Shown: positions 690-55,445 of the stretch, in pieces
How the letters are laid out: each line of letters opens with the position of its first letter
Numbering within the stretch: position 1 is the stretch's first letter
NCBI GenBank assembly: GCA_043228905.1
Contig: JBHGNT010000014.1
Span: 7,626,001-7,690,000, forward strand
Source of the DNA: Azolla caroliniana
Lineage: Eukaryota; Plantae; Polypodiophyta
Direction: 5' to 3'
Length of the DNA stretch: 64,000 nt
Translations under genes and position numbers: made by a program
The notes under the pieces: generated by a model
The model's database searches: none
What the model was told of the DNA's origin: nothing
What the model saw: the letters and a program-made list of their open reading frames with translations, nothing else

Positions 690-1912
690 CTCCCCCTCAA
701 GCTCAACTTGAGGCTCTTCGGGATCTTCACAGCGCCGGTTCCTCCTGGCTTCTCGCCTCGCTCGCGCTCCTCGACCTGTTCGACTCCACGCGCTTCGACC
801 CTTCCGGTCGGCTTGTCTGCTCATGCGGCCTTTATCAGCTCTTCTGCTGTTGCGGTGTTGACGCTTCTCCTGCTGCCTTTTCTTCCGCTTGGGCCTCGGT
901 TGATTCAGTGTGTCTGAATCAAACATCCGAACCGACTCGGCTACACCTGATCGGTTTTCGCTCTCGTCCGAGTTGGCTGTCTCCAACTCGTCCTCGGTCT
1001 TCTCGCCTTCGATGGCGTCATCTTCCCCATGCGTGGTTGGCTTCGGCTCTCTCCTTCGGTTGCTCCCCTTCTGTCTGCTTCCGAACTTTTCCGCGGGTCC
1101 GCCCTCGGCTTCTTCAGCCGATCCGATGTCGAACTTGTCAACCGACTCGGTGTCGTGGTGTCCACTCCTTTCCTGCTGCCTTGCTTGGTCGTTCGGGGCT
1201 TTTCTCCCCCTCAAGTTTGGCACGTCGAGGTGACGCAATCCAAGCGCACCTGAGAATTACCGCAACTTGTCCAGACCAAGAGGCTTGGTGAAGATGTCGG
1301 CAGTCTGCCGATCCGTCGGAACGTACTGAAGTTCGACTTCACCGGAAAGGACACGCTCACGGACGAAATGATAGTGCACCTCAATGTGCTTGGTCTGTGC
1401 GTGGAAAACAGGGTTCTTCACGAGTTGGATGCTGCTGAGGTTGTCGTAGTAGATCGTCATTGGATCGGACACCTCCTCTTGCAGTTCCTTAAGTAGCCGC
1501 TTCAACCATATGGCTTCGCATGTCGCGACAGCCGCTCCTCGGTACTCGGCTTCGGTGCTCGACAGTGCAACTGTCGGCTACTTCTTACTGCTCCACGCGA
1601 TCGCGGCACTCCCGAGCGAGAACGCGTATCCAGACGTGGATCGGCGATCGGCAGCGTTGCCAGCCCAATCAGCATCGGTGTAGCCGACTAACTGCGCGGC
1701 TGCACCGGTCCGATATAGCAGTCCCCGGTCCTTAGTGCCGTTGACATACCGAAGTATGCGTTGCGTACACTGAAGGTGCTCCTCGGTAGGTCGCGCAATG
1801 AACTGACTGATCATTCCGATTGGATAACTGAGGTCGGGTCGGGTGATGGTCAAGTATATGAGGCTTCCGACCATTTGGCAGAACCTTGTCGGGTCGCATA
1901 CCTTTCCCGTAT
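684..1912 (-). pseudogene. Copia A pol 3' part: end of RT, RNase H and charged C-terminal extension
   Basis: IYLTITRPDL, GYTDADWAG, TKHIEVHYHFVRE and ADIFTK motifs; in-frame stops. Confidence 0.93.
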
Positions 1913-2675
1913 TGTCGTGTTGTTACGCGCGTGCGTGGAGAAAGGCGGGACCACGGGGGTCTTGGACTAGGGAGCGACGGAGCATAGGAAGTCGCACTTC
2001 ACCGTTTCTGGGGCACCCCTGAAACACACCGGAAGCAGCCGAAGGGAGAGAGGGAGTGAGAGAGCCTGCTTGACACCGACTCACGCGCGCGCACACACAC
2101 ACACACACACGCACACACACGCCCTCTTGTACAGGAAATGTAGGGAAGGAGGGGAGCACCCGACACCAACAAGACGCGAATATACATAGACAAACGCAAA
2201 CATATATGTATATATATATAAGAAGAATACACTCCCGGCTTCGAGCCGGACTGAGGTAGGTTACAGTAGTCGTCTGCTGCCAAGCCGTCGTCGGGGAGCT
2301 CACGGGCTCGTCGCGCCGAGCGGGGTCTTGCGCAGGAGATGAGCTAAAGCCAACCCTAAATGAACACAAAGGGGAAGAAGAAGAAGCAGAAGAAACCTAA
2401 CCCTAAACCTACCGGTATACCCTCTAACGCAAAAATGGGCAACCCTTACACAAAGGGCATTCACTTCCTTTTATAGATCAAGGAAAGGGATGCGTTACAA
2501 TGTGGGACAAATCCCGACTTACATGGGATCGTCTGTCCCGACGTGACTACTCTTGGGCACCATAAAGGCGCCCTCGATATTCACACTAAATGTACATTGG
2601 TGCGTACAGACGCTGCACCCAGCCGATGTAGCCAATGTTCCCGATTTCCGCCTCTGGCCGAAATTCTTCACTACA
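1913..2675 (-). repeat. 3' LTR of element B
   Basis: Direct repeat of 6146-6908; contains (CA)n, (TA)n and telobox-like AACCCTAA motifs. Confidence 0.95.
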
Positions 2676-3719
2676 TCCGCCCCCACCTAACCACACATCC
2701 ACCGGTATGTGCCAAGTCCGGTTGAAGGGTGAGAGATTTCGGCCGGTGAGAAACCGGTCTTCCGTTATCCGCATCCCGGCTCACTGCCGGATTGACCCGT
2801 CGGCTTCGAGTCTGCCTTCTCGCTCACCTCCCCGTAGGCTCGTCGACCCGTCGATGGGTCCTCTGCCGCGATCTCCGTAGTACGCGTAGTTCCGTTGGCC
2901 CTTGTTCGGCCGTATGAACACCCTGCTTCCGTCGTATGCTCGATGTCCTCCGCTTAAGGAATACCCGTGGCAACCCGCTTGGCCTCCGTTGTTGAATCGT
3001 GATGTCCCGATGGTGTTTCACGTCGCCTTCGTCCTTCCGCCGCCACCTTCCTTCTCCATGGTCTTACATTGCCGCGTCGGCTCGATCCGCCATGGTCTCC
3101 GGAACGGTGTGGAGGATCCCTTTCCGGCCTTCTCCGCGCTCGCCTTCCCGCTTCGGCACCTCCGCATGCCACATACCCTCGTCTGTTGTTTGGCGTTGCC
3201 CGTGTTGCACTCCTCGTCGGCCCCTTTCCGGCCAGATCGTGCATCGTTGTTCACCCGCATACCGGTGTCCTTTGCATCCGAGGAACACCCCGTAGTAGCC
3301 CGCTTGCCCGTTCCCGTCTTCGTGCTGCTGCAACAGGTCCTGAGTCTTCCGCTTGCCGTCGTCCCCTCGCCCCCACCAGCTTATCACCCCGGCTTGCCGT
3401 GTCAGTCTTCGTTACTTCGACGGAGCTACCGAGATCCACGAAGCGAGTGCGGAGGATCCTCCTCCGGCCTCTCTTCCCATCCTGGTTCCGACCCTGTGCA
3501 GTCCGCTAGGCACTTGTCACTTCGTTCTTGACACCTCCCTTGTGCCGTCTTCCGCTTCCTTCGTTCAGCCCTGCCCGCGCCAAACACCGTCCCGTAGTCA
3601 CGCTTCGATCCGGCCCGCGATGGCCACTTACGAGACTCTTGTTCTACCCAAGGTGTGCCTTTCCGACCTGACACACCTCTCCGTGTTTGCCCCTACCGGC
3701 TCCTTCCGAACCTCGTGTC

Positions 3720-4015
3720 GTCGGGTCCCGTTCCCTGCCGCCATTGTCCTTCTCCCTCGGTCTCACGTTGCCACGTTGGCCGAACTGCCGGAGCCTCCGG
3801 ATCGGTGTGAGGGTCCCATAGGACCGGACTCCGTTTGTATGCTTGCCGTAAGTCGGGTGTCTTTTGTTTGAGTCCCTCCCGGACTCTCCTCGTGTCTTCC
3901 GCGTAGTCGGGTCCCGTTTCCCGCCGCCACCAACCTTCTCTCTCGGTCTCATGTTGCCACGTTGGCCGAACTGCCGGAGTCTCTGGTTAAGTGTGGGGAT
4001 CCCGTAGGACCGGAC
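3720..4015. repeat. Degenerate duplication, about 186-bp period, inside element B
   Basis: gtcgggtcccgtt...ggaccggac at about 3720 and about 3906. Confidence 0.8.
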
Positions 4016-4030
4016 CTCCTTACGCCCATT

Positions 4031-4250
4031 GCCTTTGTCACCTCGCCGCAACCGTCAGTATCTTGGTCTTACGTCGACCGCGTTGCCGACTGCCGAAGTC
4101 TCCAGAACTGGTGTGATGGATCCTCCGTAGGCCACCCTGCCGTAGCCCCTGCCTTCGTCACCTCGCCGACACCGTCAGTATCTTGGTCTTACGTCGACCG
4201 CGTTGCCGACTGCCGAAGTCTCTAGAACCGGTGTGAAGGATCCTCCGTCG
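4031..4250. repeat. 120-bp tandem repeat inside element B (encodes TPVLETSAVG)
   Basis: ccgtcagtatcttggtcttacgtcgaccgcgttgccgactgccgaagtctc repeated with a 120-bp period. Confidence 0.9.
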
Positions 4251-6123
4251 GCGTTCGTCGCCTTCCTGACCCTGTCCCGGGTCATCCTTTCCCTCATGCC
4301 GAGAGGGAGGTTTACTCCGCATCCTCTCCCGTGGTACCGACGTACCGTGTCTTCGGCCTCTTCGTAGGCCTGCTCTCTTCCTCCCTCCCGGAATGGTCAT
4401 GCGGGAGTCCGCTCCACCCGGTTCTCGTCCGGGTCCGTTCGTCCTTCTCCGGATTGCCGAGTCCTGTTCTCCTGTCGCCACCGTCTTTCGTACAGGACTT
4501 ACGTTGGCACTCGGGCCTGCAGCCGGATCGGTGTAAGGAATCCCATAGGACCGGCTTTCATTCTCTTTCCAAATCTCAACCTTCGCCCGGTCGGTCTTTC
4601 TCCCCATGTAAAAGAGGGCGGCTCGTCCCGCACCCCCTTCCGTATCGGCACTTTCATGCCGACTCCGGCCCCGATCGAACGATCCACGACCGGATTATGC
4701 TCCACCCGTATCGGAATGCCGATCTCCTCGTGCCGCGTCCGCCCTCGGCCTCCTCGCAGGCCGTTTCCCATCCGACTTCGTTGGCATCATGCCAGGACTC
4801 CTCGGTACCGCCATCCATCTCCTCGGTCTGACATGGGCATACGGGCCCGAATGCCGAGTTCTCCGGAATCCGGTCTGTGGGCTTTCGTCCGCTCCTTCCC
4901 CGTATCGTCTCGCCGGTGATTCTTGGCCCTCTGCCGCCGCCTTCCTCCGCTTGGGACTTACGCAGGTATTCGGGCTCGACTGCCATCGTCTCTGGAGCAA
5001 GCGTGGGAAGACACAAAGAATCACCCGCCCGTTTTACGCCCTTGTCTGTAGCCACCGACTCTTCGTGGTCGGCGGTCGTCTTCTTACCGATCGCGCAAGC
5101 CCCGTCTGGGCTTGCTTCTCCAATGACCAGGATCTCGGGCTGACACGCCCGAAACTGCTGGTCCCAACGTTCTGGTTCTGCAATCGGTATCTCGGCCTCG
5201 TCCTTGGCCGTTCTATCTCCGCAAGTCGAGAGGGTGGCTCGTCCCGCGCCCTCTTCCGTGGTACCGACGTACCCTTCTCTTTCGGCCTCCTCATCCTCCG
5301 ATCACCTCCGGCCCGACTCCATAATAAGCCCTTCTTCGGCTTCAATTTTCCCCTCCTCCTCGAGCATCGCTTTGAGCGCTGCGTACGCCTCCGCAGTCCT
5401 GGCCCCAACGCCGACCCTTGCCGACTCTCTTTGTCGTTCGGCCTCTTCCCGCTGTGATGGCACACCGTCGCGTACCTTCCTCTTAGCCTTCTCGGCTCGC
5501 TCGTTGTCTAGCCTTTGGCACACCCTTCCTACCTTCGACCAGTCCTCCGTAAGCCCATTCGCTCCATCATCGTCTTCGAGCTCAATCCCGATGGCTTCCC
5601 GTTCCGCTCGGTCGATCGACCTGACGAACAAAAGGACTTTGTCCGCCCCCACCAAACCTTGTTCCCGCTCTGGGAGCCGAGCAAGTCATCGCTCGAACTC
5701 CCGGAACACCTTCGTCGCACCCCGGTGGGTCTTTGCCGATGCTACCCACTGGTCGAAGTGGTGCCGTACCTAGTTCTTCCGCCATCCTCCGTATGCCTTC
5801 AGGAGCGCCTCTTCGAAGGCCTCCCACGAACCATGAGCTTCACGGAGCTCCATTACTTCCGCTTGCATCCGGACAGCTACGAACCGGCAGAATAACTCCA
5901 GCCTCAACGCCTCGTCTAAGCCACGCTCTTCCATTTCCACGTTGTAGGCTTCCAAGTAAGATGGGACTTTGTCCTCGTTGAAACGGACGACTCTTTCGAC
6001 CACTCGCCCAACCGCTTGTTGCGCTGCTTCTCGCCTCATCACCACTCGTGCCGACTCCAACACCACTTCGGCCACCATCTCCGCAAGGTCGTCGTCATCC
6101 GACTCCATCCTCCCTTGCCGCCC

Positions 6124-6141
6124 TTCACGTCGGGTTCACCA
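6124..6141 (-). promoter_or_regulatory. Primer-binding site, tRNA-Trp (element B)
   Basis: Plus strand TTCACGTCGGGTTCACCA matches the 3' end of plant cytosolic tRNA-Trp; 4 nt from the LTR. Confidence 0.88.
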
Positions 6142-6145
6142 AATA

Positions 6146-6314
6146 TGTCGCGTTGTTACGCGCGTGCGTGGAGAAAGGAGGGACCACGGGGGTCTTGGAC
6201 TAGGGAGCGACGTAGCGTATGAAGTCACAAATCACCGTTTCTGGGGCACCCCTGAAACGCACCGGAAGCAGCCGAAGGGAGAGAGGGAGTGAGAGAGCAT
6301 GCTTGACACCGACT

Positions 6315-6346
<32 letters not shown>

Positions 6347-6908
6347 TGCACACGCCCTCTTGTACAGGAAACGCAGGGAAGGAGGGGAGCACCCGACACC
6401 AACAAGACGCCAATATACACAGACAGACGCAAACGTATATGTATATATATATAAGAAGAATACACTCCCGGCTTCGAGCCGGACTGAGGTAGGTTACAGT
6501 AGTCGTCTGCTGCCAAGCCGCCGTCGGGGAGCTGACGGGCTCGTCGCGCCGAGCGGGGTCTTGCGCAGGAGATGAGCTGAAGCCAACCCTAAATGAACAC
6601 GAAGGGGAAGAAGAAGAAGTAGAAGAAACCTAACCCTAAACCTACCGGTATACCCTCTAATGCAAAAATGGGCAACCCTTACACAAAGGGCGTTCACTTC
6701 CTTTTATAGATCAAGGAAAGGGATGCGTTACAATGTGGGACAAATCCCGACCTACATGGGATCGTCTGTCCCGACTTGACTACTCTTGGGCGCCATAAAG
6801 GCGCCCTCGATATTCACACTAAATGTACATGGGTGCGTACACATGCTGCACCCCGCCGATGTAGCCGATATTCCCGATTTCCGCCTCTGGCCGAAATTCT
6901 TCACGAAA
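6146..6908 (-). repeat. 5' LTR of element B
   Basis: Direct repeat of 1913-2675; terminal CGACA mutated to CGAAA on the plus strand. Confidence 0.95.
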
Positions 6909-6914
6909 CCGTAT

Positions 6915-17259: not shown

Positions 17260-17272
17260 CTATCTCCCTTCT

Positions 17273-27083: not shown

Positions 27084-27442
27084 TGTCATGATAACACTCA
27101 CATCATGCATCGAAAGGATCATGACACTCACATTATGACTCAAAAGGATTTGAACCCACAACCTTGTTATACACATGTCAAATCCTTAACCATTGTATTA
27201 ATATTCTTATATGTATAGTTTTTAGAATATGAAATCTAATATCATAGGAATATTCTATATTACTCTACATTCTAGAATGACCTAGAATATTCCAGAGTGT
27301 TCTATACCACTAGAACCTGCTAGAATACTCTAGAGATCTTCTAGATTACTCTACGTTCTAGGATAACCTAGAATATTCTAGAGTGTTCTCAATTACTTAT
27401 AAATAGGGATCTACCGCCCATCCCAAACCTAAATTGGTTCAA
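27084..27442 (+). repeat. Inverted U3 portion of the gypsy I LTR
   Basis: 359-bp reverse complement of 16901-17259. Confidence 0.93.
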
Positions 27443-27444
27443 AC

Positions 27445-33835: not shown

Positions 33836-33840
33836 TAATT

Positions 33841-33858
33841 TGGTGAACCCGACGTGAA
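33841..33858 (+). promoter_or_regulatory. PBS tRNA-Trp (element D)
   Basis: TGGTGAACCCGACGTGAA. Confidence 0.88.
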
Positions 33859-33931
33859 GAGGCGGCAAGGGAGGACGGAGATGGATGAAGACTTTGACTT
33901 CGCGGAGATGATGGCAAAGATTGTGACGGAT

Positions 33932-39576: not shown

Positions 39577-39621
<45 letters not shown>

Positions 39622-39942
39622 TGAGAGTGAGGGAGACAAGGAATAAGACACAGAGACTATGTAAAGTAAGAGTATATTTACAAAGGAGGAAGACTCAACA
39701 CAATACAAGGTGGGAGGAGGTTGCTTTATATAGTCACCCTCTCTCTTCATTAACTACAAGACTCATGGAGCATGGGGAATGTGAAAGCTCATAAGTTATG
39801 TGTCATAGAATATGATTCTATGACTCATACTAAATGCTAGAATACAAAGAGGTGACATAATGGTGACTCTTGACCGTTGGAGTGTCTATTCACTCTCAAG
39901 GTGAGTTCACACACTAGATCAAGTTGAGCTTGATTCTCAACA
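33932..39942 (-). mobile_element. Ty1/copia element E (decayed; hosts a solo LTR)
   Basis: LTRs 33932-34324 and 39517-39942; TSD CGGAT (33927-33931 / 39943-39947); PBS iMet 39505-39516; CRYCGKLGHHEEDC, WFVDSGAS, IHSDVWG, LYVDDL motifs. Confidence 0.96.
38001..38733 (-). mobile_element. Solo LTR of the Trp-primed family (diverged F type)
   Basis: Homologous to 45680-46466; 4-bp TSD CCGA (37997-38000 / 38734-38737). Confidence 0.92.
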
Positions 39943-39947
39943 CGGAT

Positions 39948-41293
39948 GCTAGATAGAAGAAGGCGGGGCGAGATGCGGCTCAACAAGCCGTCGAGAGGGT
40001 GGTCGATCGAGTCGGCCGATTCAATGGAGATGATGTCCCGAGGTTTTTGAAAGTGTACAATGCCGAGATGACGAAGAGGGGCGTGGACGAAGCGATGTGG
40101 CTAGAATATTTTCGTCGAGTGGCGGCCGTATCGATGCACAAAGAGGTCAAGGAGCTTCGAGACACTCACGAGTCGTGGGAGTCCTTCGAGGGAGCTCTAT
40201 TGGAGGCGTACGGGTACGTTAAACCGGAGGGGCGAGGTCGGCATGAGTTCGATCGATGGGTGGCGTTTGTGAAGGCCCATCGGAACGCTATGGAAGCATT
40301 CCAAGAGTTCGAGTGTCGTTTCCCTCAACTCTCGGAGCGGGATCAGAGATCAGTGGGGGCGGACAAAGTCCTCTTATTTTTGAAGACGGTCCATCAAAAG
40401 GAGAGAATGGACATTCTATTCGAGCTTGAAGATGATCACGTAGCACACGGTCTCACCGAGGAGTGGTCTGAAGTAGAGTGGATGTGCTGAGAACATGATG
40501 CGAGATGGTCAGCCACAAAGCGGCCCACGAGTGGTGGAGAAGAGAGAGCAGTGAGTGACTATGCACTACCGTCGGATGAGAGCTCAACGCGTAATGATAT
40601 GGAGGAGTACGACCTAGAGGCGTTAATTCGGGAGGCATGCGAGATCGTGAAGGTGAAGATCGAAGCCAAAGAGTGCCTTGTTATGGAGTCGAGCCCGAGA
40701 GGATCGGAGGACGCGGAGGAAGATGCCTCCCTACGCGTGGAGGACGGGGCCTATGCGGAGGCCGGAAGAGTGTACGACGACGTGGGAGAGGGTGCGGAGC
40801 AAGCGACCCTCTCGTCTTGCGGTGAAGGGACGACCATGGAGGAGGCTGGTGACTACCAAGCGGGGAGCGCCACTTCGAGAGTGGGCGGGGAATTTGGGAT
40901 ACGATGGCCCGAAACATCAAGCGGGGAGGAGACGAGTGGTGGTGCCGGGACCTTACCCACACCGATTCTAGAGACTCCGGCGTCTGGCCCGAGAGCCGGT
41001 GTGAGACCTAGAGTGACGAATGATGGCAGTGGCAAGGCGGGCAACCATGACGATGGAAAGGAAATCGAGGAAGAGGAGGCGGCAAGCGTAATCGAGGCTT
41101 CCGCGATCGGAGACGAGGTAGCCACGAACAATGACGTCTGGATGGAGGTGGCTACGGACATAACGAGCAACGACGCCGGGATCTTACCCGCACTAGTTCT
41201 AGAGACTCCGGCATCCGGCCCGAGAGCCAGTATGAGACCTAGAGTGACGGATGGTGGCGGCGGCAAGGCAGGCGACTGAAACGAAGAGGAGGA
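39948..41293 (+). pseudogene. Gag-like ORF of element D, middle part (starts about 33881, continues 50288 to about 51650)
   Basis: VGRFNGDDVPRFLKVYNAEM..WESFEGALLEAYG..VGADKVLLFLKT..GLTEEW; two PxxLETPASG repeats at a 231-bp period. Confidence 0.82.
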
Positions 41294-41376
41294 TGTTAGG
41301 AAACAGGTCCCTCCGGATGGGAAGTGAGAAGAACAGCACTGATGAGCAAACTCGGCCTCGGCCGAATCCGTATGTG

Positions 41377-41482
41377 GAGTACCCGGTGAGAACCGGACGA
41401 CGAGTACCCGGCTACGGAAGACCCGGTGAGAACCGGATGACGAGTACCCGGCTACGGAAGACCCGGTGAGAACCGGATGACG
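41377..41482. repeat. About 40-bp tandem repeats in the H LTR (also 49660-49785)
   Basis: gagtacccggctacggaagacccggtgagaaccggatgac units. Confidence 0.88.
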
Positions 41483-42016
41483 TGTGCCCGGAAAGCGTCG
41501 GATGATGCAGGCCCGGTGAGGAGTGCTCACCGGATGAAGGGACATATTCGTAAATATGTTTCTGAGAGTCCATCGGGGCAATATTTGTAAATAGCCGAAA
41601 AGTCATATTAGTATAAATATGACTGAGGGCAAACTTTAGTGTGTTTTTTTTTGTTGTCATTCTTGTTGGTGCAAGATTAGAGCGTAACAGTGTACAGAGA
41701 GAGAGAGAGAGAGATGAAGAGGTCGTTTCCTCTATTGTAACCGCCGCCTGTGGCGAAGATAGCAAGCTCGAGGTTGTTACCTCGGTGCTTTACTATTGTA
41801 CATTCTAATATAGTGATAGTTTGCAGTCTGTGGCTGCCGTGGTTTTTCCCTAGTTTGGGTTTTCCACGATAACATCCTTTGTTCTCTTCTCTCCATTGTG
41901 TTGTGCATTCATTCTCATTTTCAGTGTTAGATTCTAAGCTTGGTTGTGGCCGAGCGTTGTTTATCGGGAGTGTGTAGTTCCTGACAAAGTGGTATCAGAG
42001 CGAAGCGACACAGAAA

Positions 42017-45000
42017 ATGGATGAATCATTGGGAGGCATGTTCAAGCTCACCGGCTCCAACTATTCGGTGTGGAAGTCGAAGATGAGGGACATGCTCGTG
42101 GTTAAAGATCTTTGTTTGCCGGTTTAGTTTGGGGACAAGAGACCGGACAAAATCGACGCCACGATATGGGAGGTGATGCATATGAAGACAACTGCGTACA
42201 TACGGTGCTTCATCGACATGAGTCTATACAACAACTTCAATGAAGAGAGCAAGGCTCATGAGCTCTGGGAGAAGATCGGCATTATGTTTCAAAACAAAAA
42301 TGCTATTAATCAGGTTTCGGTATTTCGGAAGCTAGTAAGACTCTGGTACCAAGATGGCTCCAACATGGCGGAGCACATGAATGCCTTCCAGGGGCTGATC
42401 CACCAGGCAACATCATTGGAAGTACCTCTCGCCGACGAAGTACTAGCACTACTCCTACTCGGTTCCCTCCCAGATAGCTGGGAGACGTTGGTTGTCACTT
42501 TGGGCCACGCCGGGCCGGAAGTGAAATGATTATCCCTAGCAAGAGTGAAGTCGAGCTTGCTAGATGAGGAGGCAGGTCGGAAAGATAAGGATACGAGCTC
42601 CGACTCCAAAGCGCTCCTTACTGAATCGGAACGTGGAAGCCAAAGGAACCGTAGTCCCCAGAACCGGGAGAAGTCGGGGACACGGTCAAAGTCAAGGGGG
42701 AGGCCTACCTGCTTCTATTGTGGCAAGCCAAGACACTTCCAGAAAAACTGTCGGCACTTCCGAAAGGACAAGGAAACCGACGACACCGATTCGAAGCGGA
42801 CATCGGACCGAAACGGTAAAGACCGGAAGGGAACCATGGCAATCGCGTCAAGTGAAGAAGAGTTGATGCTCATCACCAAGGAGAGTGAGCTAAACCTTGC
42901 CGGCGACGAGATGACTTGGGTGGTCGACTCCGGATTGTCGTTCCACCTTACCCCGGACCGGAAATGCTTCTCATCCTACTCAGTCGGTGATCACGGCTGT
43001 GTCCGGATGGGGAATGAAGGTACATGCCGAATTTTCGGCATAGGAGACGTGTGGTTGACAACGCCAACCAGATGCAAGCTGCTGCTGAAGGATGTTCGAC
43101 ACGTTCCGGAGGTTCGTCTAAACCTGATATCACCCGGTCGACTAGATGATGAAGGCTACACGGGTAGCATCCGGAACGGTGTTATGAAGTTCAGCAAAGG
43201 GAGCATGATTGTGGCTCGGGTCCGGAAGGTAAACACTTTGTACCTGATGAATGCCCAGTTATGTTCGGAGGAAGTGAACGTGGCATCTGACACTGCCGGT
43301 GAGCTGTGGCACAAGAGGCTGTGCCACATGAGCGAGAAGGGGATGAAGAGGCTTGCAGAAGACAACCTCATTCCAGTGAAGAACGTGCACTTGGAGAAGT
43401 GCATTGATTGTCTGGCCGATAAACAAAATCGGACCTCCTTCTGATCGAGGCCACCGATGAGACGTAATACACCACTGGAGTTGGTGCATACTGATGTATG
43501 TCAAGTGGACACGAAGTCACATGCCGGATCGCAGTACTTTGTGACGTTCATAGATGACCACAGCCGGAAGCTGTGGGCCACACCATTGAAGACGAAGGAT
43601 CAGGTGTTATCCGTCTTCAAAGAGCTCCACGCGAGAGTGGAAAGAGAAGCCGGCCGGAAGTTGAAGGTGGTTCGAGCAGATAACGGAGGTGAATACCGGG
43701 GGCAGTTCGAGGAGTATTGTCATTTGAAGGGAATCCGGCTCGAATTTACCGTGCCGAAGACGCCGAAACTAAACGGGCTGGCCGAGAGGATGAACCGGAC
43801 CATAATGGAGAGGGGCCGGAGTATGCTGGCGCATGCAAAACTACCCAAGAAGTTTTGGGCTGAGGCACTGTCGACGACGACATATGTGATAAATAGATCA
43901 CCCTCAATACCCTTGGACGGAGACACGCCACAGAGAGTCTGGACTGGTAAGGAAGTGTCCTACCGGCATCTGAAGGTATTCGGGTGTCTTGCGTATGTGC
44001 ATGTAGCTAAGGACCGGAGAGGAAAACTAGATTCGAAGACCCGGCCATGCATATTCCTCAGTTACGGTGACGATGGGTTCGGCTACCGAGTGTGGGACTT
44101 GGCCGACAAGAAGGTATTCCGGCGTCGAGATATTATCTTCATGGAGGACAAGACGCTCGCCGACTGGGAGTTGGAGAAGAAGATAATGAACTCCGAGTCG
44201 ACCGGTAACGATTGATTCTACGATGAGCAGACCCAACCGGCAAGAGACCGGTTAGCACTCGAGGAACCAGTCGGTTACGGTGAGGATACCGAACCGGTAG
44301 AAGAAGAAGTAGAGGAAGCTGAAACCGGAACTGGCGAAGACCCCGAATCGGATTCGGATGAAGAGCAAATGGAGGAGCCGGTTATCGAAGCCCAAAGACG
44401 GAGATATCCTCTCAGAGAGAGAAGGCCCCCCCGGAGATTTCCGGATGCAGAGCATGTGTTGCTAACCGATGAGGGAGAGCCAGAAAGCTTTGAAGAAGCG
44501 AAGGATGACACCCACAACCGGAAATGGTTAAGTGCCATGCAGGATGAGATGGATTCCCTGCACGAGAACCATATGCACGAATTGGTGGAGTTGCCGAAAG
44601 GAAAGCGGGCACTCCGAAACAAGTGGGTGTACAAGTTGAAACCGGGAGATGCCGGCAACCCCCCGAGATACAAAGCCAGGATTGTGGTGAAGGGGTTCGA
44701 CCAGAAGAAGGGCGTGGACTTCGACGAGATATTTGCCTCGATAGTAAAGATGACCTCCATCCGGACGGTGCTGAGTATAGCGGCAAGCATGGACCTCGAA
44801 GTAGAGCAGCTGGACGTGAAGCTGACATTCCTTCACGGTGACCTTGAAGAGGAGATCTACATGCAGCAACCGGAGGGATTCGTGGAGAAAGGGAAGGAGC
44901 ACCTAGTTTTTCGGTTGAAGAAGAGCCTGTACGGACTGAAGCAGGTTCCCCGACAATGGTACCGGAAGTTTGACTCCTTCATGACCGATCAAGGGTACCA

Positions 45001-45679
45001 CAAGACGCAGGCCGATCATTGCGTGTTTGTGAAGAAGTTCGAAGGAGGCGACTTCCTGATACTCCTTCGATCGTCGGACGGGACCAAGCCAGAATACGGA
45101 TGTTGAAGAAGGCTCTCAATCGAACTTTCGCAATGAAAGACTTGGGTCCGACAAGACAGATGCTGGCGATGCATATCATCCGGAACCGGCCAATGAAGCA
45201 ACTGTGGCTGTCACAGGAGAAATACATAACAAAGGTGCTTCAGCGGTTCAACATGTTAGAAGCGAAACCAGTCGGATCGACACTCCCGGGAAACTGCAGA
45301 TTATACGGTAAGCAAAGCCCGAAGACGAAAGCAGAGAAGGCTGATATGATGAAGGTTCCATATGCCTCTGCCATCGGGATCTTAATGTACGCAATGGTGT
45401 GTACCCGACCGGATATAGCATACGTAGTCGGAGTACTGAGCCGGTTTATGAGAAATCCCGACAAGGAGCACTTGAACATGGTCACATGGATACTCCGGTA
45501 CTTGAAGGGCACTTCGGACATGTGTCTCCGACTCGGCCCCGATAAACCTCAACTTGACGGTTTTACTGATTCAGACATGTCGGCTGATATGGATACCAGT
45601 TGGTCTACATCCGGGTATGTAATGACTTATGCAGGGGGAGCTGTTTCGTGACAGTCGAGGCTGCAAAAGACGGTTGCGT
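42017..45679 (+). pseudogene. Copia H gag-PR-INT-RT-RH (RNase H end at 49257-49606)
   Basis: FKLTGSNYSVWK, CFYCGKPRHFQKNC, WVVDSG, LVHTDVC, NGLAERMNRT, YKARIVVKG, VPYASAIG, GFTDSD. Confidence 0.94.
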
Positions 45680-46418
45680 TGTCGTGCCTTTCGGCTCAGG
45701 ATCGTTGCGTGAGCCGGGTGGGAACCGCCGAGGTTTTGGACTAGGAGAAAGAAGAATATGAGATGAGGCTAGTAATGAATAGATTATTAGAAAGAGAGAT
45801 AGAAATTTCATGAATCCCACGAGTGTATTGTATTCGATTAATCAATATTTAGATAAGAATATGTATTTAGATTGAAAGAAAGATATAAGAAACTTGTGAA
45901 TCCCACAAGTATAGATTATATTATTTTCGTGAATACCACGATTATATTAATCGGTTGGTGTTTTCGGAAATATATCCAATTTCCAAATATTTCACACCCC
46001 TATTACATTCTGCTCCCCATCCTTATGTAGTGATGAGAGAGACTAAGCATAGCTACATGCTTTTTCTAATATGTTCATGCACACTAAATGTGCATGTGAT
46101 GCTTTTCTAATCCTTGCTTTTATTTGCTAAATATAGTGCTCATGCACGCTAGATGTGCATGAGTCACTTTTTAGTTACTTGCGTTTTTCTATAAAATATT
46201 CACGCACTCTAAAAATGCATGATTTACTTTTTAATAAAGGTAGGCGCAAATAACGGACTTATAGTTATTAAATCTATTTGTAGAACACTAAAGATAAGGT
46301 AGCATAATGGTAAAGTTGAGGTTTGGCTACGTGGAGGTACAGGGTTTAAATCTTGCCCTATGCACGTGGTAAATATTTTGATATTCTTATTTTATTTATT
46401 TATATGTAATTAAATCGG

Positions 46419-48428
46419 TTATATTATTTTTACTTTTTCATGTAGTGTACGAAATACACTACGACACTCGCCCCCTCCGAACCCGCACATCCTCCGGTAT
46501 GTGCCGAAGTTGCCGATGCTCATTGTCTCCCCTTCATCCTCCGTTTGTCCCGCTATGTCAACTTTGTCTCTCCATTTTGAGTAGACCCATTCTTTCCACC
46601 CGAACCATTGTCGCCATCCGATCCACCATATTCTTTGTTCTCTCTCGTCATATTCTTGGCCCTTGTCATTCGTGGTAGTGTCTTTTACTGGCCTCTTTCT
46701 TGTCTTCATCAACCTTGACTTTTTTCCGGATCGCTCTCGTCCGATCGACTTTCGGTTTGATCGGCTTCCGATCGGATTCGTATTCGGCCGAATCGGAATC
46801 GGTTGTTCGGTTTCGATTGAGTCGGTCTCCTTCCGGCCCGGTTTCGATCTATCGGTTTCGGTTTCGGTTGGCTTTCTTTTCCTCGTTTTCACCAGCCTCG
46901 ACCGGTCCAACCTCCGATTGAGTCGGATTAACTTCTTTCCGGATCGGTCTCGTCCGATCGGCTTTCGGCTAGGTCGGCTTCCATCCATATTCGCGTTCGG
47001 CCAAGTCAGACTCGGTCGATCGTTTTTGACCGAGTCGACCCCTTTTTGGGTCGGCTTTCTTTCGGGTCGTCTTTCGGCCGAATCCTCATCCTTTCGGTTC
47101 GGCTTTCTTTCGGGTCGACTTTTGGTCGAATCCTCATTCGCCCGGTTCGGCTTTCTGTCAGGTCGGAATCCCGTCCGGATCACCTTCCATCCGAACCGGC
47201 TTTCGACTTTACCTTTCTTGCTTCCACCTCCCGTCTCTCCGGTCTCACGTTGGTTCTCGGACACAACCGCCGAAGTCTCTAGAATTAGTGGGTAGGAATC
47301 CTCGATATTATCATCCTCCGTTGTTTCACCCATAGCCATATTCTTGGCTATCTCTCCGTCATACGCATCGGTTTCGACCTTTGTTTTCTCTCCGCCACCT
47401 TCCGTCTCTTCGGTCTCACGTTGCCTTTCGAACGCAACCGCCGGAGTCTCTGGAATCAGTGGTGGGGAAGTCTCGATATGGCCATCCGTCGTTGATTCGT
47501 CCATAGCCACCTTTGATTCGATGTCATCTTTCGTGGCGACCTCCTCAATCAAGTCCTCCTTTCTCTCTTTCACTGCATCAATTATGCTTACCCCTTTTTC
47601 ACCCGATGTTTCGGACACTTGTATTCTGAAATCTTCTTCTACACTTGGGTTATCGGCCTTATCCTTCGTCGTTGTTCTTTCGCAAGACAAGAGGGTAGCT
47701 TGTTTTACACTCTCTTCCGTCGCACCATCATGTTGTATTTCGGCCTTCATATCGGCTCCATCGTTTGTCTTCAATCGACCATCCTTCATCGGCCATGTCG
47801 TTGACAAGATTCTTATCTTCCTCTCATCATGTCTCCGGCATACCCTTTGGACTTCGGCCCAATCTTCGGTAAGACCATTCGCACCGTCATCGTCTTCGAG
47901 TTCGATCCCGATGTCCATCCTTTCTTTTCGATCGATCGATTTTACGAACATTAAGACTTTATCCTCCCCCACCAATCGTTGTTCCCGCTCCGAGAGTCGA
48001 GCAAGACGATGCTCGAACTCTAGGAATGCTTGTGTTGCACTTCGGTGGGTCTTCTCCAATGCCACCCATTCGTCAAACTCGCATCGATCTCGTCCCTTCG
48101 ATCTCTCGTAGTCATATGCCTCTCGTAAAGCTTCTTCAAAGGACCCCCATGTTGGATTTTGTTGCCGTATCTTGTAGATTCTTTCTTGTAACTCATCCGT
48201 GGCTACCCGACTGAAGGATATCACTTGCAATCCTTCCGGTATCCCACATCGCATCATCTCCCCTTTGTAGTCACGTAGATAGCGTGACACATCATTTCCG
48301 TTCAATTCCCCTTTTCGTCGCACAAGCCGCTCTACTGCCACCTTCATCTCCGTCATCGCGTGTTGTTCTTGTTGCATCCGCTCAACCATCATCATCATCA
48401 TGTTCATCGCCTCTTGTTGATTTTCCAT
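46419..48428 (-). CDS. Intact 669-aa gag-like protein of element F
   Basis: Uninterrupted ORF starting about 15 nt after the PBS and filling the whole internal region; conserved N-terminal ~210 aa shared with B and D; acidic then basic repetitive tail; gag identity is inferred from position and motif pattern. Confidence 0.8.
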   Translation of the reverse strand: MENQQEAMNMMMMMVERMQQEQHAMTEMKVAVERLVRRKGELNGNDVSRYLRDYKGEMMRCGIPEGLQVISFSRVATDELQERIYKIRQQNPTWGSFEEALREAYDYERSKGRDRCEFDEWVALEKTHRSATQAFLEFEHRLARLSEREQRLVGEDKVLMFVKSIDRKERMDIGIELEDDDGANGLTEDWAEVQRVCRRHDERKIRILSTTWPMKDGRLKTNDGADMKAEIQHDGATEESVKQATLLSCERTTTKDKADNPSVEEDFRIQVSETSGEKGVSIIDAVKERKEDLIEEVATKDDIESKVAMDESTTDGHIETSPPLIPETPAVAFERQRETEETEGGGEKTKVETDAYDGEIAKNMAMGETTEDDNIEDSYPLILETSAVVSENQRETGETGGGSKKGKVESRFGWKVIRTGFRPDRKPNRANEDSTKSRPERKPNRKDEDSAERRPERKPTQKGVDSVKNDRPSLTWPNANMDGSRPSRKPIGRDRSGKKLIRLNRRLDRSRLVKTRKRKPTETETDRSKPGRKETDSIETEQPIPIRPNTNPIGSRSNRKSIGRERSGKKSRLMKTRKRPVKDTTTNDKGQEYDEREQRIWWIGWRQWFGWKEWVYSKWRDKVDIAGQTEDEGETMSIGNFGTYRRMCGFGGGECRSVFRTLHEKVKII

Positions 48429-48443
48429 CTCCTTGCCACCCGT

Positions 48444-48461
48444 TTCACGTCGGGTTCACCA
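48444..48461 (-). promoter_or_regulatory. PBS tRNA-Trp (element F)
   Basis: Plus strand TTCACGTCGGGTTCACCA, 4 nt from the LTR. Confidence 0.88.
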
Positions 48462-49085
48462 ACTGTGTCGTGCCTTTCGGCTCCGGATCGTTGTGTGAGT
48501 CAGGTGGGAACTGCCGAGGTTTTGGACTAGGAGAAAGAAGAATATGAGATGAGGCTAGTAATGAATAGATTATTAGAAAGAGAGATAGAAATTTCATGAA
48601 TCCCACGAGTGTATTGTATTCGATTAATCAATATTTAGATAAGAATATGTATTTAGATTGAAAGAAAGATATAAGAAACTTGTGAATCCCACAAGTATAG
48701 ATTATATTATTTTCGTGAATCCCACGATTATATTAATCGGTTGGTGTTTTAGGAAATATATCCGATTTCCAAATATTTCACACCCCTATTACATTATGCT
48801 CCCCATCCTTATGTAGTGATGAGAGAGACTAAGCATAGCTACATGCTTTTTCTAATATGTTCATGCACACTAAATGTGCATGTGATGCTTTTCGAATCCT
48901 TGCTTTTATTTGCTAAATATAGTGCTCATGCACGCTAGATGTGCATGAGTCACTTTTTAGTTGCTTGTGTTTTTCTATAAAATATTCACGCACTCTAGAA
49001 ATGCATGATTTACCTTTTAATAAAGGTAGGCGCAAATAAAGAACTTATAGTTATTAAATCTATTTGTAGAACACTAAAGATAAGG

Positions 49086-49139
49086 TAGCATAATGGTAAA
49101 GTTGAGGTTTGGCTACGTGGAGGTACAGGGCTCGAATCC
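49086..49139 (+). promoter_or_regulatory. tRNA-like Pol III A/B boxes inside the F LTR
   Basis: A box TAGCATAATGG and B box GGCTCGAATCC (GGTTTGAATCC in the solo LTRs), 32-nt spacing. Confidence 0.55.
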
Positions 49140-51782
49140 TGCCCTATGCACGTGGTAAATATTTTGATATTCTTATTTTATTTATTTATATGTAATTAAA
49201 TCGGTTATATTATTTTTACTTTTTCACGTAGTGTACGAAATACACTACGACAGCGTTGTCAACCACGGAAGCGGAGTACATGGCAGCTGTGGAAGCTAGC
49301 AAGGAAATATTATGGATGAAGGACTTCATCGGAGAGCTCGGTATCTGGCAAGATGAATACCGGCTCTATTGCGACAGTCAAAGTGCCATCCACCTTGCTA
49401 AGAATGCAGCCTACCATTCCCGAACAAAGCATATCCAGTGAAGGTATCACTGGATCCGGAAAAGAGTAGATGACCAGGAGTTCGCGCTGACGAAGATCCA
49501 CACGGCCAAGAACGGGTCAGATATGCTGACCAAAGTACTGATACCCAACAAGTTGGATGCATGCCGGAAGCGGATCAGACTAGTAAGACATCCCATGCCG
49601 GAGTGAAGGGGGGGAGTTTGTAAGGAAACAGGTCCCTCCAGATGGGAAGTGTTCGGATGTGGAGTACCCGGCTACGGAAGACCGGGTGAGAACCAGACGA
49701 CGAGAACCCGGCTACGGAAGACCCGGTGAGAACCGGATGACGAGTACCCGGCTACAGAAGACCCAGTGAGAACCGGATGACGTGTGCCCGGAAAGCGCCG
49801 GATGATGCAGGCCCGGTGAGGAGTGCCCACCAGATGAAGGGACATATTCGTAAATATGTTTTTGAGAGTCCATCGGGGCTATATTTGTAAATAGCCGAAA
49901 AGTCATATTAGTATAAATATGACTGAGGGCAAACTTTAGTGTGTTTTTTTTAGTTGTCATTCTTGGTGGTGCAAGATTAGAGCGTAACAGTGTACAGAGA
50001 GAGAGAGAGAGAGATGAAGAGGTCGTTGCCTCTGTTGTAACCACCGCCTGTGGCGAAGATAGCAAGCTCGAGGTCGTTGCCTCGGTGCTTTACTATTGTA
50101 CATTCTAATATAGTGATAATTTGCAGTCTGTGGGCTGCCATGGTTTTTCCCTAGTTTGGGTTTTCCACGATAACATCATGTGTTCTCTTCTCTCCATTGT
50201 GTTGTGCATTCATTCCCATTTTCAGTGTTTGATTGTAAGCTTGGTTGTGGCCAAGCGTTGTTCATCGGGAGCGTGTAGTTCCTGACAGATGCGAGGCCTG
50301 GAACGAGCATATACGAAAGGACCGAAGGGGAGGCCGAGAGCGGCAACAAGAAGAGAGTCGAGAACCAACCTGACCGGAAGGCGAACTGGGAAAAGAATGA
50401 AGCGGGGCCCGGTCAACTGGGCCCAAACTGAAGAAGAGCCGACAAGACCAGAAGTGTTCAGCTGAACCCTTACCGACCGGTTACGATTATGGAAGGAAGC
50501 TGACCAAACCGGAACATGATCGGTCGGGACCGAACCGAGCAAGGACCAAGCCGGCATGATTGGAGATCGGGGAGGACGAGTCGCAACACATGGTGGGAGC
50601 CGGTGAGCGCGAGAAGGAGGCCAAGCGGGCATGACGACTACGGTCCTGTGAAAGACCGGAAACGGGCGGGACACTCCACACCTATTCTAGAGACTTCAGC
50701 GGTTGCGGATGAACGTAAGATTGGAGAGACGGCGGGTGGCAGCGAGGAGTCGGTTACCGGAGCGGGTATCCGGTATGAAATAATGGACGAATGGGGCCAA
50801 AACGGCAAGCCCCAGTTGGAACGAGCTATGACAACAAAGGGAGAAGAGGCCAACGTGGAGGTCAGGTATACGACGGGTGAAGGGAGTAAAACGAACCATG
50901 CACTACGACCGGCTAAGGGCCAAGAAGCAAGGATGCACCCAGAAGAGTGGCAACGAGTGACCGGCAACGGTGGGCCGATCGAGCCTTTAAGAGGCAAGCA
51001 CGTGGTGAGAGACGAAGCGGTAGGGTGCCATGATTGGTGGATGAACGGCTGGAGAGAAGCATGGTGTGCGGTGAATAAAAGGGTACACGTCGGGAAGAGA
51101 ATGTGTGGCGTGCCGGAGGACATGCGAGGCCAAGAGGGTGCAAGTCAAGGCGAAGCAGTATCAAGAGCAGCGAAGGACACCGACCCGGAGGTCGGTATGA
51201 GGGTACGTTCTACGGCGAGAGAACACGACAAGCAAGGGGGAAGCGAGGAGTGCGTAATGGGGTCGCGTAAGGACTGAAGAACGAGTGTGCATTCGGGGAA
51301 CGATAACGGCACACAAGAAGATCCTACGCAAAGCGAGCGCGGAGCGGAGAGAGTCAGCATGCGGAGACGATCGAACCGACAGAGGGACATACGCGGTACG
51401 CAAGGCGTGAAATCCGACGTACAACCGAAGTGACCGGGGGCCCAATCGAAGGGCATACATGGCGGACAAATTCGGAGTGGCCGGGTTGACAACGGCATCC
51501 AGGAGGACATATCGGGGAGGAAGGCGCAAACGTCGGATATGGTGGATCGGATGGAGCCGATGGATCGGGGCCGGAAGGAGCCGGCAAGGCGGTCGGGTGT
51601 CGGGACGGCAGATGACCCGGTTGATCATCGTCGCCAAAATCTCTCACCTTTTCCCTCTTGGCACATACCGGTGGATGTGCGGTTTGGTGGGGCCAGATGT
51701 CGTGAAGATTTCTGGCTACGGTGAGAAAACCGGGAGGGACAATTAAAATGGGGATGTGCAACATTGCACATGCACTTGTAAA

Positions 51783-54700
51783 TGTAAAAGATTATGTGCG
51801 GAAGCAATAGAAAACCGAACACACACGATATACGCAGGTTTAATGGAGAGCTTTGAGTATACACAATACACGGGAGAGATAGAGAGAGAGAAACACACAG
51901 AAACTCAATTCAAAATAATACTCAATCTGTACACACACCATGCTTAGTGACCACCTTTTATACAAGCCCTGACAATAGGGCTGACACAAGTATTGACAGT
52001 ACTTGACCGCTCATAAATGAGCCTCGACACTTACTCCCGAAATTATTCCTTACGAGGAATATCTTTCTAACGGCCTTCCGGTTTACGCACCGATATGGCC
52101 ATGTTATGTGTACCGATTTACGCACCCAGTCTACGCACTGGGTTACGCACCGTATTATGCACACATGTTGAGCTTGTCTCTCAACACTCCCCCGCAAGCT
52201 CAACTTGAGGTTCCACCTGCTCCACTGGATCTACGCTCCAGTTCCTTCTAGCTTCACGCCTCACTCGTGCTCCTCGATTCGTTCGATTCCGCGCGCCTCG
52301 ACCCTCCCGGTCGGCTTGACTGCTTAAACGGCCCTTCTCAGCTTCCTTGTTGTTGTAGTGTTGGCGCCTCTTCTGCTACCTTCTCTTCCGCTTGGCCCTT
52401 GGTTGATTCAGCGTAACCGAATCAAACATCCGAACTAACTCGGCTTCCTCCGATCCGTTTTCGTTCTCATCCGAGTTGGTTGTCTCCAACTCGTCTTCAA
52501 TCTTCTCGCCCTTGATGGCTTCATCTCCCCCATGCTTGGCTAGCTTTGGCTCTTTCTTCCGGTTGCTCCCCTTATGTCCGCTTTCACACTCTTCCGTGGA
52601 TCCGCCCTCAGCTTCTTCAACCAATCCGAAATCGAATTCGTCATCCGACTCGGCGTCACGGTCTTTTCCGCTCCTTTCCTACTCCCTTCCGTGGTCATCC
52701 AGGACGTCTCTACCCCTCAAGTTCGGCTCGTCGAGGTGACGCAACCCAAGCGCACCCGAGAATTGTTGCAACTTTTCCAGACCAAGAGGCTTGGTGAAGA
52801 TGTCGGCGTTCTTCCAATCCGTCGGAACATATTGAAGTTCAACTTCACCGGAGAGGACACGCTCACGGACGAAATGGTAGTGAACCTCAATGTGCTTAGT
52901 CCGGGCGTGGAAGACAGGGTTCTTTGCTAGCTAGATGCTACTGAGGTTGTTGTAGTAGATTGTCGTTGGATTAAATATCTCCACCTGCATATCCTCAAGT
53001 AGCCGCTTCAACCATATGGCTTCAAATGTCGCGACATCCGCTCCTCTATACTCGGCTTCGGTGCCCAACTGCGCAACTGTCGGTTGCGTCTTGCTCCTCC
53101 ACATGATCGCGGCACTCCCAAGAGAGAACGCGAAACCGAACCTGGATCGGCGATCGGTGGCGTTTCCGGCCCAATCAGCATCGGTGTAACCAACCAACTG
53201 CGTGGCAATATCGGTTTGATATAGTAGCCCCCGGTCCTTAGTGCCATTGATGTACCGGAGTACGTGTTGTGCCCACTGAAGGTGCTCCTAGGTCGGTCGC
53301 GCCATGAACTGACTAATCACCTCGATTGGGTAGTTGAGATCTAGTCGGGTGATGGTCAAGTATATAAGTCGACGTACCACACCTCGTCCAACTTCGGGGT
53401 GATCTTCTTCATCGAGTTAGCTTTGTATCTCTTCACGAAGACTGACCCTTTTCCGGATCCTTCGGCGTAGTGCGATCGTTGCCGATTTCCTTTGTTGGTC
53501 AGTCCGGAACCTGATCCTGACCCGGTTCTCTCCAAATCAGCGCACTTTTTCCAGCACTCGCTCTCCCTGTGGCCTTTCTTGCCACAGTACCAACCTTCCG
53601 CAGCGGATTTCCCTTGCCGGTTCTCGTCGCCTTGACTCCCCCTGTTTCCAAAGGGTCCGGAATTGTTGTCGGCATCGCTTCGATGCCTTCTTCCTTGATC
53701 TCGTTGGCTGCCTCCATTGCGCACCGACTCGCCATCTCCCTCCATGTACAACATCTTGTTGTCGGCATGCGTGCTCGTCGACGCACCCGCGTGGTTCTCC
53801 TCTACAAGGAGCATCGATTGTAAGTCAAAAAACAACGGCGTGTGTACACACAGCAATTCGGAACACTCCGAACTTCGACGTCAGTCCCCCGAGACTAATC
53901 TGCACCATCTCACCTTCCTCGACGTTCACATCGATAGAGGCTAAAGAGTCGCATATATCTTTGATCTTCGAGGTGTAATCAACCACTGATAAGTCGCGTT
54001 GTCATAAATTGCTTATCTCCTGTCGGAGTTGAAGCTTCCAAGCTGTCGTGCTTGCGGCGAAAATCTTCTTCAGATTTCCCCAAGCATTCTTTGGCGTTTT
54101 CGCATCCCGAATATAGTTGAGGAGTTGTTCGCCCACACAAGACGCGAAGCAGTACAGTACTCTGCTCATTGGCTGTTCCCACACCGGGAAATCTCTGTGT
54201 GTCGATTCGGGTGCTATGTCCTTTGCTCCGTCAACATAGCTCCAGTAACCATGCCTGAACAGGTACTGGTGCATCCTGTAGGACCAAGATGCGTAGTTGT
54301 TTCTGTAGAGCTTCTCCGTCGGAAGTGAGCTAGCCATGCCTCTATCCATCGGTTTTATCTGTTCTTCTTGGTTGGTTTTCCTTTCAAGCTATGTCGGTTG
54401 CAGAGGCTCTCAACCCTCACGCTCTGATACCATGTAAAATATTATGTGCGGAAGCAATAGAAAACTGAAAACACACAGAATACGCAGGTTTAATGGAGAG
54501 CCTGACCTGAGTATACACAGTACGCGGGAGAGACAGAGAGAGAGAAACACACAGAACCTCAATTCAAAATAATACTCAATTTGTACACACATCGTGCTCA
54601 ATGAGCACCTTTTATACAAGCCCTGACAATAGGGCTGACACAAGTACTGACAGTACTTGATCGCTCATAAATGAGCCTCAACACTTACTCCCAAAATTAT

Positions 54701-54841
54701 TCCTTACGAGGAATATCTTTCTAAACGGCCTTCCGGTTTACGCACCGATACAACCATGTTATGCGTACCGATTTACACACCTAGTCTACGCACTGGGTTA
54801 CGCACCGTATTATGCACGAATGTTGAGCTTGTCTCTCAATT
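51783..54841 (-). mobile_element. Ty1/copia element G, internally deleted, inserted in the 3' LTR of D
   Basis: LTRs 51783-52186 and 54433-54841; PBS iMet 54421-54432; TSD GTAAA / ATAAA; protease WYVD fused directly to RT IYLTITR. Confidence 0.93.
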
Positions 54842-55445
54842 ATAAATTTGTGTAATAAGAATAAGTAAACAAAATGTAATGGGAAGGGTAACAATCTAAG
54901 GTGCTAAAGGTGCACCACGAAGTTTGTAGAGGCATAAATGTGATGTGCACTTTGTAGAGTACGAGGCCAGTAATGGGCATAGTAGTATGTGTGAGGAGTG
55001 GGAGCTAAGGCCCATTAATCCCTCCTCCTAGAATCTAAGCAAATATCCCCATTGAATAAAGGGGATATTTAGTCTCTCCTTTTTGTAACGGCTTTCTCTC
55101 CTTATGCTATCAAAGGAGAGGAAGGGGCACCATTGAAGACGTTGCCTATTTTGAGTAAGAGAGGTCTTCTTTACTTGCTTATCCGGTTAGGGTTTTGTTA
55201 TACCGTTTGGTGCGGCCTCTACGGCCATTGTTGTAATCATTCGGGAAGTCTTAATAAACTTGTTGAGTATCTCGACTCCATCGTCTTCTTCTTCAATCTT
55301 CATGTCATATTCATTGTCCTCTCCTCTTGAGCTAAGCTTCCATTTCTTGTCTTATTCTTTCTCCTCTACTCCCTAGTCCAAGACCCCCGCGGTCCGCGGT
55401 CCCGCCTTGGATCCTACACGTACTTGCGGAATATTGTGACAACGT

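What the first reader, a model, noticed from the sequence alone, without database searches (positions are those of the whole stretch)
1907..55445. All five insertions of the Trp-primed family sit on a CpG, and all inside other retroelements
Seen: TSDs are TCGC (20758/21485), GCGT/ACGT (33091/55442), CCGA (37997/38734), GCGT (45676/49253) and CCGTAT (1907/6909), with CG at positions 2-3 every time. The hosts are copia A, C, E, H and gypsy L. The copia insertions here have 5-bp TSDs without such a pattern. Even at a 10% CpG frequency per site, four centred hits would have a probability near 1e-4. Known: some Drosophila gypsy-group integrases (ZAM) prefer CG-rich targets. Inference: the helper integrase makes a 4-bp stagger centred on CpG and may read methyl-CpG, steering insertions into silenced TE DNA.
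Basis: partly seen in the sequence, partly recalled or inferred. Interest (0 to 1): 0.85.

Follow-up and report, generated by a model that had tools for sequence, protein, structure and literature searches.

The report
Phygy-type retrotransposon always inserts at CpG
These plant jumping genes really do insert almost only at CG dinucleotides, but this habit is already published for the moss 'Phygy' group that they likely belong to, and nothing here shows that they sense DNA methylation.

Summary
The pattern is real and extends beyond the window. Four of five insertions have a 4-bp duplication with central CG; the fifth is 6 bp (CCGTAT, CG off-centre). In related contigs, 11 of 15 further flanks are NCGN and 3 more are single C-to-T decay products. 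Plurality consensuses of 121-156 junction contigs read NCGT in four of four sequencing runs. The elements are gag-only or solo-LTR derivatives of a gypsy partner found here (gag-PR plus RT-RH-INT; no chromodomain, no extra RNase H). Trp primer, 4-bp NCGN duplication and no extra domains are the published signature of Phygy elements of Physcomitrella (PMC6317226: 186 elements, TSD 4 bp in 100%, motif NCGN, Trp primer in 81%). Nesting is not special: 97% of the window's CG sites lie in transposon DNA, and 5 of 6 other LTR insertions are nested too. The likely mechanism is a foamy-virus-like intasome that kinks a central pyrimidine-purine step, with added CG selectivity. Methyl-CpG reading is untested and not excluded (about 15%).

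The parts
1913..6908 (-). E1: non-autonomous (gag-like only) Trp-primed element, LTRs 1913-2675 and 6146-6908 (K2P 0.050), in copia A RT; 6-bp TSD CCGTAT at 1907-1912/6909-6914
6124..6141 (-). E1 primer-binding site TGGTGAACCCGACGTGAA, 4-nt spacer after the LTR (tRNA-Trp identity recalled, not tool-tested)
20762..21484 (+). E2: solo LTR in copia C RNase H; TSD TCGC at 20758-20761/21485-21488
33095..55441 (+). E3: non-autonomous element (about 4.3 kb without nested copia E, H, I); 5' LTR 33095-33835, PBS 33841, 3' LTR 51698-55441 split by copia I; inserted just behind the LTR of gypsy L in CG-poor DNA (1.6%); TSD GCGT/ACGT
38001..38733 (-). E4: solo LTR in copia E gag; TSD CCGA at 37997-38000/38734-38737
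45680..49252 (-). E5: non-autonomous element, LTRs 45680-46466 and 48466-49252 (K2P 0.027), PBS 48461, one open frame 46419-48455 whose N-terminal 209 aa are 49-53% identical to the partner Gag; in copia H RNase H; TSD GCGT
2676..2715 (-). conserved block of about 40 nt ending in a G-rich polypurine tract before the 3' LTR; same block at 51658-51697 (+) and 46467-46506 (-), and in partners L001, L007, L040

Best explanation
The five insertions are gag-only and solo-LTR copies of a Trp-primed, chromodomain-free gypsy group, likely Phygy, whose partner integrase leaves a 4-bp duplication centred on CG and is predicted to pick that site by DNA shape and sequence, not by a methylation-reader domain. 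Shown: the NCGN bias, the partner's shared LTR end, PBS and Gag, its domain content, and a fold closest to foamy-virus integrase. Inferred: the partner (or a sister) mobilises the window's elements in trans. Its intasome would kink the target at the central pyrimidine-purine step, as known for 4-bp-stagger retroviral integrases, and added base contacts would narrow YR to CG. Candidate contacts are a conserved loop of the SH3-type C-terminal domain and a conserved Glu at the position of PFV Ala188. Insertions fall inside other retroelements because nearly all CG sites here are in retroelements. The 6-bp case is likely an occasional aberrant stagger.
For: Published Phygy signature: 4-bp TSD in 100% of 186 elements, motif NCGN, tRNA-Trp in 81%, no extra domain; the text calls it the only plant lineage surveyed with a target motif (PMC6317226 passages and supplementary table). 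Partner L001 has two overlapping ORFs (712 and 1241 codons); its LTR is 76-80% identical to E2/E4/E5, and its LTR end + CAGT + PBS reads as in E5. Pfam finds RT, RNase H, H2C2, rve, a weak SH3 and DUF4100 in Gag, but no chromodomain and no RNase_H PF00075. Nearest named pol relatives are from the liverwort Riccia, 60-64% identical at best. Integrase model (pLDDT 71.7; C-terminal 70 aa disordered and unconserved): the top 8 PDB hits are PFV intasomes, then Ty3. PFV-type 4-bp integrases select a central YR step largely independently of chromatin (PMC4422553 abstract and passages). The bias replicates: 11 of 15 flanks and four run consensuses. Nesting is expected by composition.
Against: No P. 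patens Phygy sequence was at hand, so membership was not tested on a tree. YR flexibility alone does not explain the data: CA, TG and TA steps are 18% of steps against 5% for CG, yet only 3 of 19 four-base sites have them at the centre, so an extra selectivity step is needed and is unidentified. E1 and E3 share only distant Gag (27-35%), PBS and PPT with the partners found, so their true helper may be another sister. The partner's estimated length (about 7.2 kb) is slightly under the published Phygy range (7656-9968 bp). One TSD is 6 bp; one flank (L022, CAGA) is not NCGN.
Confidence: 0.72

Rival explanations
1. The integrase prefers methylated CG, through methylation-altered DNA flexibility or a direct contact with the methyl group, and so favours silenced transposon DNA over unmethylated genes.
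For: CG is chosen over the more abundant CA/TG/TA steps. CG sites here decay like methylated ones: transitions between LTR pairs at 15% of CG, 12% of CHG and 3% of CHH sites, and 3 of 15 outside flanks show a TG or CA centre. A review reports that C methylation created strong target preferences for an avian retroviral integrase in vitro (PMC11054761 passage citing Kitamura 1992; original not read). A liverwort genome paper reports Phygy among lineages enriched at centromeres (PMC12885004 passage).
Against: No reader domain found. Decay of the TSD CG shows methylation after insertion, not recognition. Nesting is no higher than composition predicts, and other families nest as often. ZAM integrase binds its CG-rich site on oligonucleotides and PCR products, which carry no methylation (PMC2527525 passages; the lack of methylation is my inference).
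Confidence: 0.15
2. The elements belong to another Trp-primed, 4-bp lineage (TatI or an unnamed clade shared with basidiomycete fungi) that has the same CG preference as Phygy.
For: TatI is also 4 bp and Trp-primed. ESM Atlas look-alikes of the partner Gag and RT include Basidiomycota clusters. No direct Phygy reference was compared.
Against: TatI always carries an extra RNase H, which Pfam does not find in L001 or L006. NCGN is reported only for Phygy.
Confidence: 0.11
3. The pattern is chance or a boundary-calling artefact in five sites.
For: Small n in the window; one TSD is 6 bp and one is mismatched; 2 of 5 control TSDs also contain CG.
Against: Boundaries fit paralogue and empty-site comparisons; independent replication.
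Confidence: 0.02

Closest known systems
Phygy (non-chromovirus Ty3/gypsy of Physcomitrella; Neumann et al. 2019, PMC6317226)
   Same: tRNA-Trp PBS, 4-bp TSD with NCGN, TG...CA ends, no chromodomain, no extra RNase H, no extra ORF in the partner; nesting into other elements is also reported for Phygy (into Tcn1; PMC6911290 passage).
   Different: Window copies are gag-only (3.6-5.0 kb) or solo LTRs; partner about 7.2 kb; host unnamed, probably another non-seed plant (inferred from Riccia relatives and a self-priming chromodomain gypsy in the window); one 6-bp TSD; mechanism not studied in the passages read.
TatI (REXdb)
   Same: 4-bp TSD, tRNA-Trp primer.
   Different: TatI has an additional RNase H in 100% and no reported motif; not found in the partner.
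Prototype foamy virus intasome
   Same: Closest solved structure by sequence (E 9e-22) and by fold; 4-bp stagger; central YR step.
   Different: PFV accepts any YR weakly; here CG is nearly obligatory, and a conserved Glu stands where PFV has Ala188.
Drosophila ZAM integrase (PMC2527525)
   Same: Gypsy-group integrase with an intrinsic CG-rich target (CGCGCg).
   Different: Longer fixed consensus plus a second binding site; different lineage and host.

Membership tests
Phygy | Placement in the Phygy clade on RT/RH/INT trees | not testable with these tools
   No P. patens Phygy reference was returned; nearest named pol is Riccia at 60-64%
Phygy | 4-bp TSD | tested here: met
   4 of 5 in the window; fifth is 6 bp
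Phygy | NCGN target motif | tested here: met
   4 of 4 four-base TSDs; 11 of 15 outside flanks; run consensuses
Phygy | tRNA-Trp PBS | tested here: met
   Same PBS in 3 of 3 non-solo window copies and 9 hits in loci; its identity as Trp is recalled, not tool-tested
Phygy | No chromodomain, no extra RNase H, no extra ORF | tested here: met
   Partner L001 (L006 runs off its contig):
Phygy | Length 7.7-10 kb, polyprotein spans nearly the whole interior | tested here: inconclusive
   L001 interior 342-6008 is almost all coding; the estimated total of about 7.2 kb is just below range; contig is a collapsed assembly
TatI | Additional RNase H (aRH) | tested here: not met
   No PF00075 hit at E<=0.05
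Chromovirus (heterochromatin-targeting) | Chromodomain at the integrase C-terminus | tested here: not met
   C-terminus is acidic, disordered and unconserved

The most novel reading that the evidence does not exclude
Phygy-type integrases are chromodomain-free readers of methylated CG: they kink and select 5mCpG directly at the target centre and so confine new copies to silenced DNA. This would be DNA-level epigenetic targeting by a retrotransposon integrase and would explain the published but unexplained NCGN rule.
Probability: 0.15. Interest if true: 0.75.

Novelty: new member of a known kind. Interest (0 to 1): 0.27.

Why it matters
As it stands, this extends a published lineage trait (Phygy's NCGN target) to an abundant family with non-autonomous derivatives in another plant, and supplies an intact partner integrase sequence. 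That makes an open question testable: why this integrase needs CG. If it reads methyl-CG, it would be a new route to safe-haven targeting and a possible methylation-mapping or targeting tool. If it reads plain CG, it is a neat but ordinary case of integrase sequence specificity.

Tried and rejected
No whole genome is held, so no genome-wide TSD logo and no TE-versus-gene insertion test could be made. Pfam found nothing in the four window gag-like frames scanned. The first lay of contigs on a whole LTR gave no usable flank table; only the short-stretch lay did, and it gives plurality consensuses, not frequencies, with 113 rows not shown. A suspected recurrent hot spot (L040 flank resembling E2's site) was rejected: the L040 flank is the partner's own gag. 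The single-sequence fold failed (pLDDT 36). Cluster look-ups gave no organism names. GingerRoot (PMC6839031 passages) has 6-bp GC-rich TSDs with no CG centre, so it is not relevant. The RLG paper (PMC7466625 passages) gave no TSD or clade data. Print searches: 'Phygy' 18 papers; 'NCGN'+'retrotransposon' 3 papers, only PMC6317226 relevant; 'NCGN' alone mostly medical noise; methylated CpG/target site selection/retrotransposon integrase 41 papers, 15 listed, none on plant integrase methyl reading by title; 'DUF4100' 0. Subscription papers are not covered, and the REXdb sequence files were not among the supplements held. No tRNA genes in the window. Own-findings look-ups had nothing on this family. 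No tree was built, for want of a reference.

Full report
Anatomy. Self-comparison and reading of most of the sequence show a nest of plant LTR retrotransposons, a LINE and one PPR gene. Five insertions share TGTCG...CGACA-type ends: E1 1913-6908 (-), E2 20762-21484 (solo), E3 33095-55441 (+, holding copia E, H and I), E4 38001-38733 (solo) and E5 45680-49252 (-). E1, E3 and E5 carry the PBS TGGTGAACCCGACGTGAA 4-5 nt after the 5' LTR; I recall this as complementary to plant tRNA-Trp, and no call tested it. They form two LTR subfamilies (E1/E3; E2/E4/E5) and encode only a gag-like frame with no pol. LTR pairs differ by K2P 0.027-0.050.

The observation. TSDs are TCGC, GCGT/ACGT, CCGA, GCGT and CCGTAT. 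Paralogue alignment and frame register give 4 bp for E2, E4 and E5 and 6 bp for E1. Contigs of the uninterrupted copia site (46 and 34, one sample) support E5's boundary. So 4 of 5 are CG-centred, against local CG frequencies of 1.6-8%. The control is weaker than stated: non-family TSDs are GTAAC, AAACC, CGGAT, GTAAA/ATAAA and CCGAC, with copia H unreadable, so 2 of 5 contain CG.

Independent tests. A scan of metagenome contigs with a related Gag-PR gave 41 loci. BLAST of LTR termini found 31 ends in them. I dropped 12 next to a PBS, 3 next to a PPT and 1 at a contig end. Of the 15 left, 11 are NCGN, 2 have a TG and 1 a CA centre (single C-to-T decay of CG) and 1 is CAGA; P(>=11 of 15) is 5.5e-12 at the loci's 5% CG. 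Two of the 15 starts (L022, L036b) rest only on my motif pick, and some contigs are collapsed assemblies. The window's paralogue of the L022 site reads CCGA. Laying assembled contigs of four public runs (two or more organism codes, three studies) on E2's 3' end gave loose ends exactly at the LTR terminus in 156, 149, 130 and 121 contigs. Their consensus starts CCGT, ACGT, CCGT and ACGT, with overall agreement near 0.4, meaning diverse flanks. Ends with a mutated terminus gave GCGT or ACGT again. PBS junctions mostly have A or T at that position, so they do not cause the signal. These are pluralities, not frequencies.

Nesting. All five sit in retroelements, but by hand annotation 89% of non-family bases and 97% of CG sites in the window are TE, so 5 of 5 has probability 0.84 for any CG-seeking element. 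Five of six other LTR insertions with mapped ends are nested too. This part carries no information on targeting.

The helper. L001 has overlapping gag-PR and RT-RH-INT frames, an LTR 76-80% identical to E2/E4/E5 and the same LTR end, spacer and PBS as E5. Its Gag is 49% identical to E5's over 209 aa, and 27-32% to E3's and E1's. Pfam finds RT, RNase H, H2C2, rve, a weak SH3 and DUF4100, and no chromodomain or extra RNase H. Named relatives are Riccia proteins at 60-64%; Atlas look-alikes are in Streptophyta and Basidiomycota. An alignment-based model of the integrase (68 sequences, pLDDT 71.7) matches PFV and Ty3 integrases best. Its last 70 residues are acidic, disordered and unconserved.

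What is known. Neumann et al. 2019 (PMC6317226; passages, section 15 and supplementary table read) state that Phygy elements prefer NCGN, unlike all other plant lineages surveyed. Their table lists Phygy as 186 elements, 4-bp TSD in 100%, Trp primer in 81%, no extra domain. TatI shares Trp and 4 bp but always has an extra RNase H. Phygy nesting in Tcn1 (PMC6911290, passages) and Phygy in a liverwort (PMC12885004, passages) are also in print. The family therefore works like Phygy in every feature I could test; membership by tree could not be tested.

Mechanism. Integrases with a 4-bp stagger bend the target sharply and favour a central pyrimidine-purine step, largely independently of chromatin (PMC4422553, abstract and passages). 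CG is such a step, but CA, TG and TA are over three times as common here and are scarcely used, so further selectivity is needed. I infer base contacts. Leads are a conserved loop before the WFGPY motif and a conserved Glu in DRGEL that aligns with PFV Ala188, where retroviruses have small neutral residues; in PFV that residue contacts bases three positions outside the joint, not the centre. The methyl-CG rival has a precedent in an avian retrovirus in vitro (PMC11054761, passage). CG sites here do decay like methylated ones (15% CG, 12% CHG, 3% CHH), but that holds for all TE DNA and does not show recognition. ZAM integrase binds its CG-rich site on synthetic DNA (PMC2527525, passages). I put methylation-independent readout in a Phygy-type element at 0.72, methyl reading at 0.15, another lineage at 0.11 and chance at 0.02.

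Verdict. A real, well-replicated, but already described lineage trait in a new family. Interest 0.27; the residual value is an intact integrase with which to ask why CG is required.

Noticed in passing
window 2676-2715 (-), 46467-46506 (-), 51658-51697 (+); L001 5969-6008; L007 5638-5677; L040: A block of about 40 nt (GGCACATACCGG.GGATGTG.GG.TT.G then the G-rich tract) is conserved before the 3' LTR across both subfamilies and the partners, though the rest of the interior has diverged; likely a cis signal for plus-strand priming or packaging.
   Followed up: partly
L001 pol, integrase core: DRGEL motif at least 90% conserved in 68 homologues puts Glu at the PFV Ala188 / HIV Ser119 position, usually a small neutral residue.
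   Followed up: partly
window 57512-63057 (-): Tcn1-like chromovirus with an aromatic-cage-type chromodomain (read by eye), a self-priming PBS complementary to its own LTR, and TSD CCGAC; suggests a non-seed plant host.
   Followed up: partly
window 16809-17262 and 27082-27541: Two 97%-identical blocks in which a 361-bp part is inverted relative to an 81-bp part; possibly an inversion at an element end.
   Followed up: no
window 28274-31585 (+): Intact 1103-codon PPR frame (10 PPR_2 stretches, weak E motif), the only recognised host gene, embedded in the TE nest.
   Followed up: partly
L001 Gag and RT (Atlas): Closest look-alike clusters include DUF4100-bearing gypsy proteins of Basidiomycota, so the lineage may be shared with fungi; their TSDs would date the CG preference.
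   Followed up: no
window 17347-17576: Near-perfect 115-bp tandem duplication inside a gypsy LTR (99%).
   Followed up: no
L036, L040, L002: Several family LTRs are inserted into the partner's own gag/protease or into family LTRs, again mostly at CG.
   Followed up: partly
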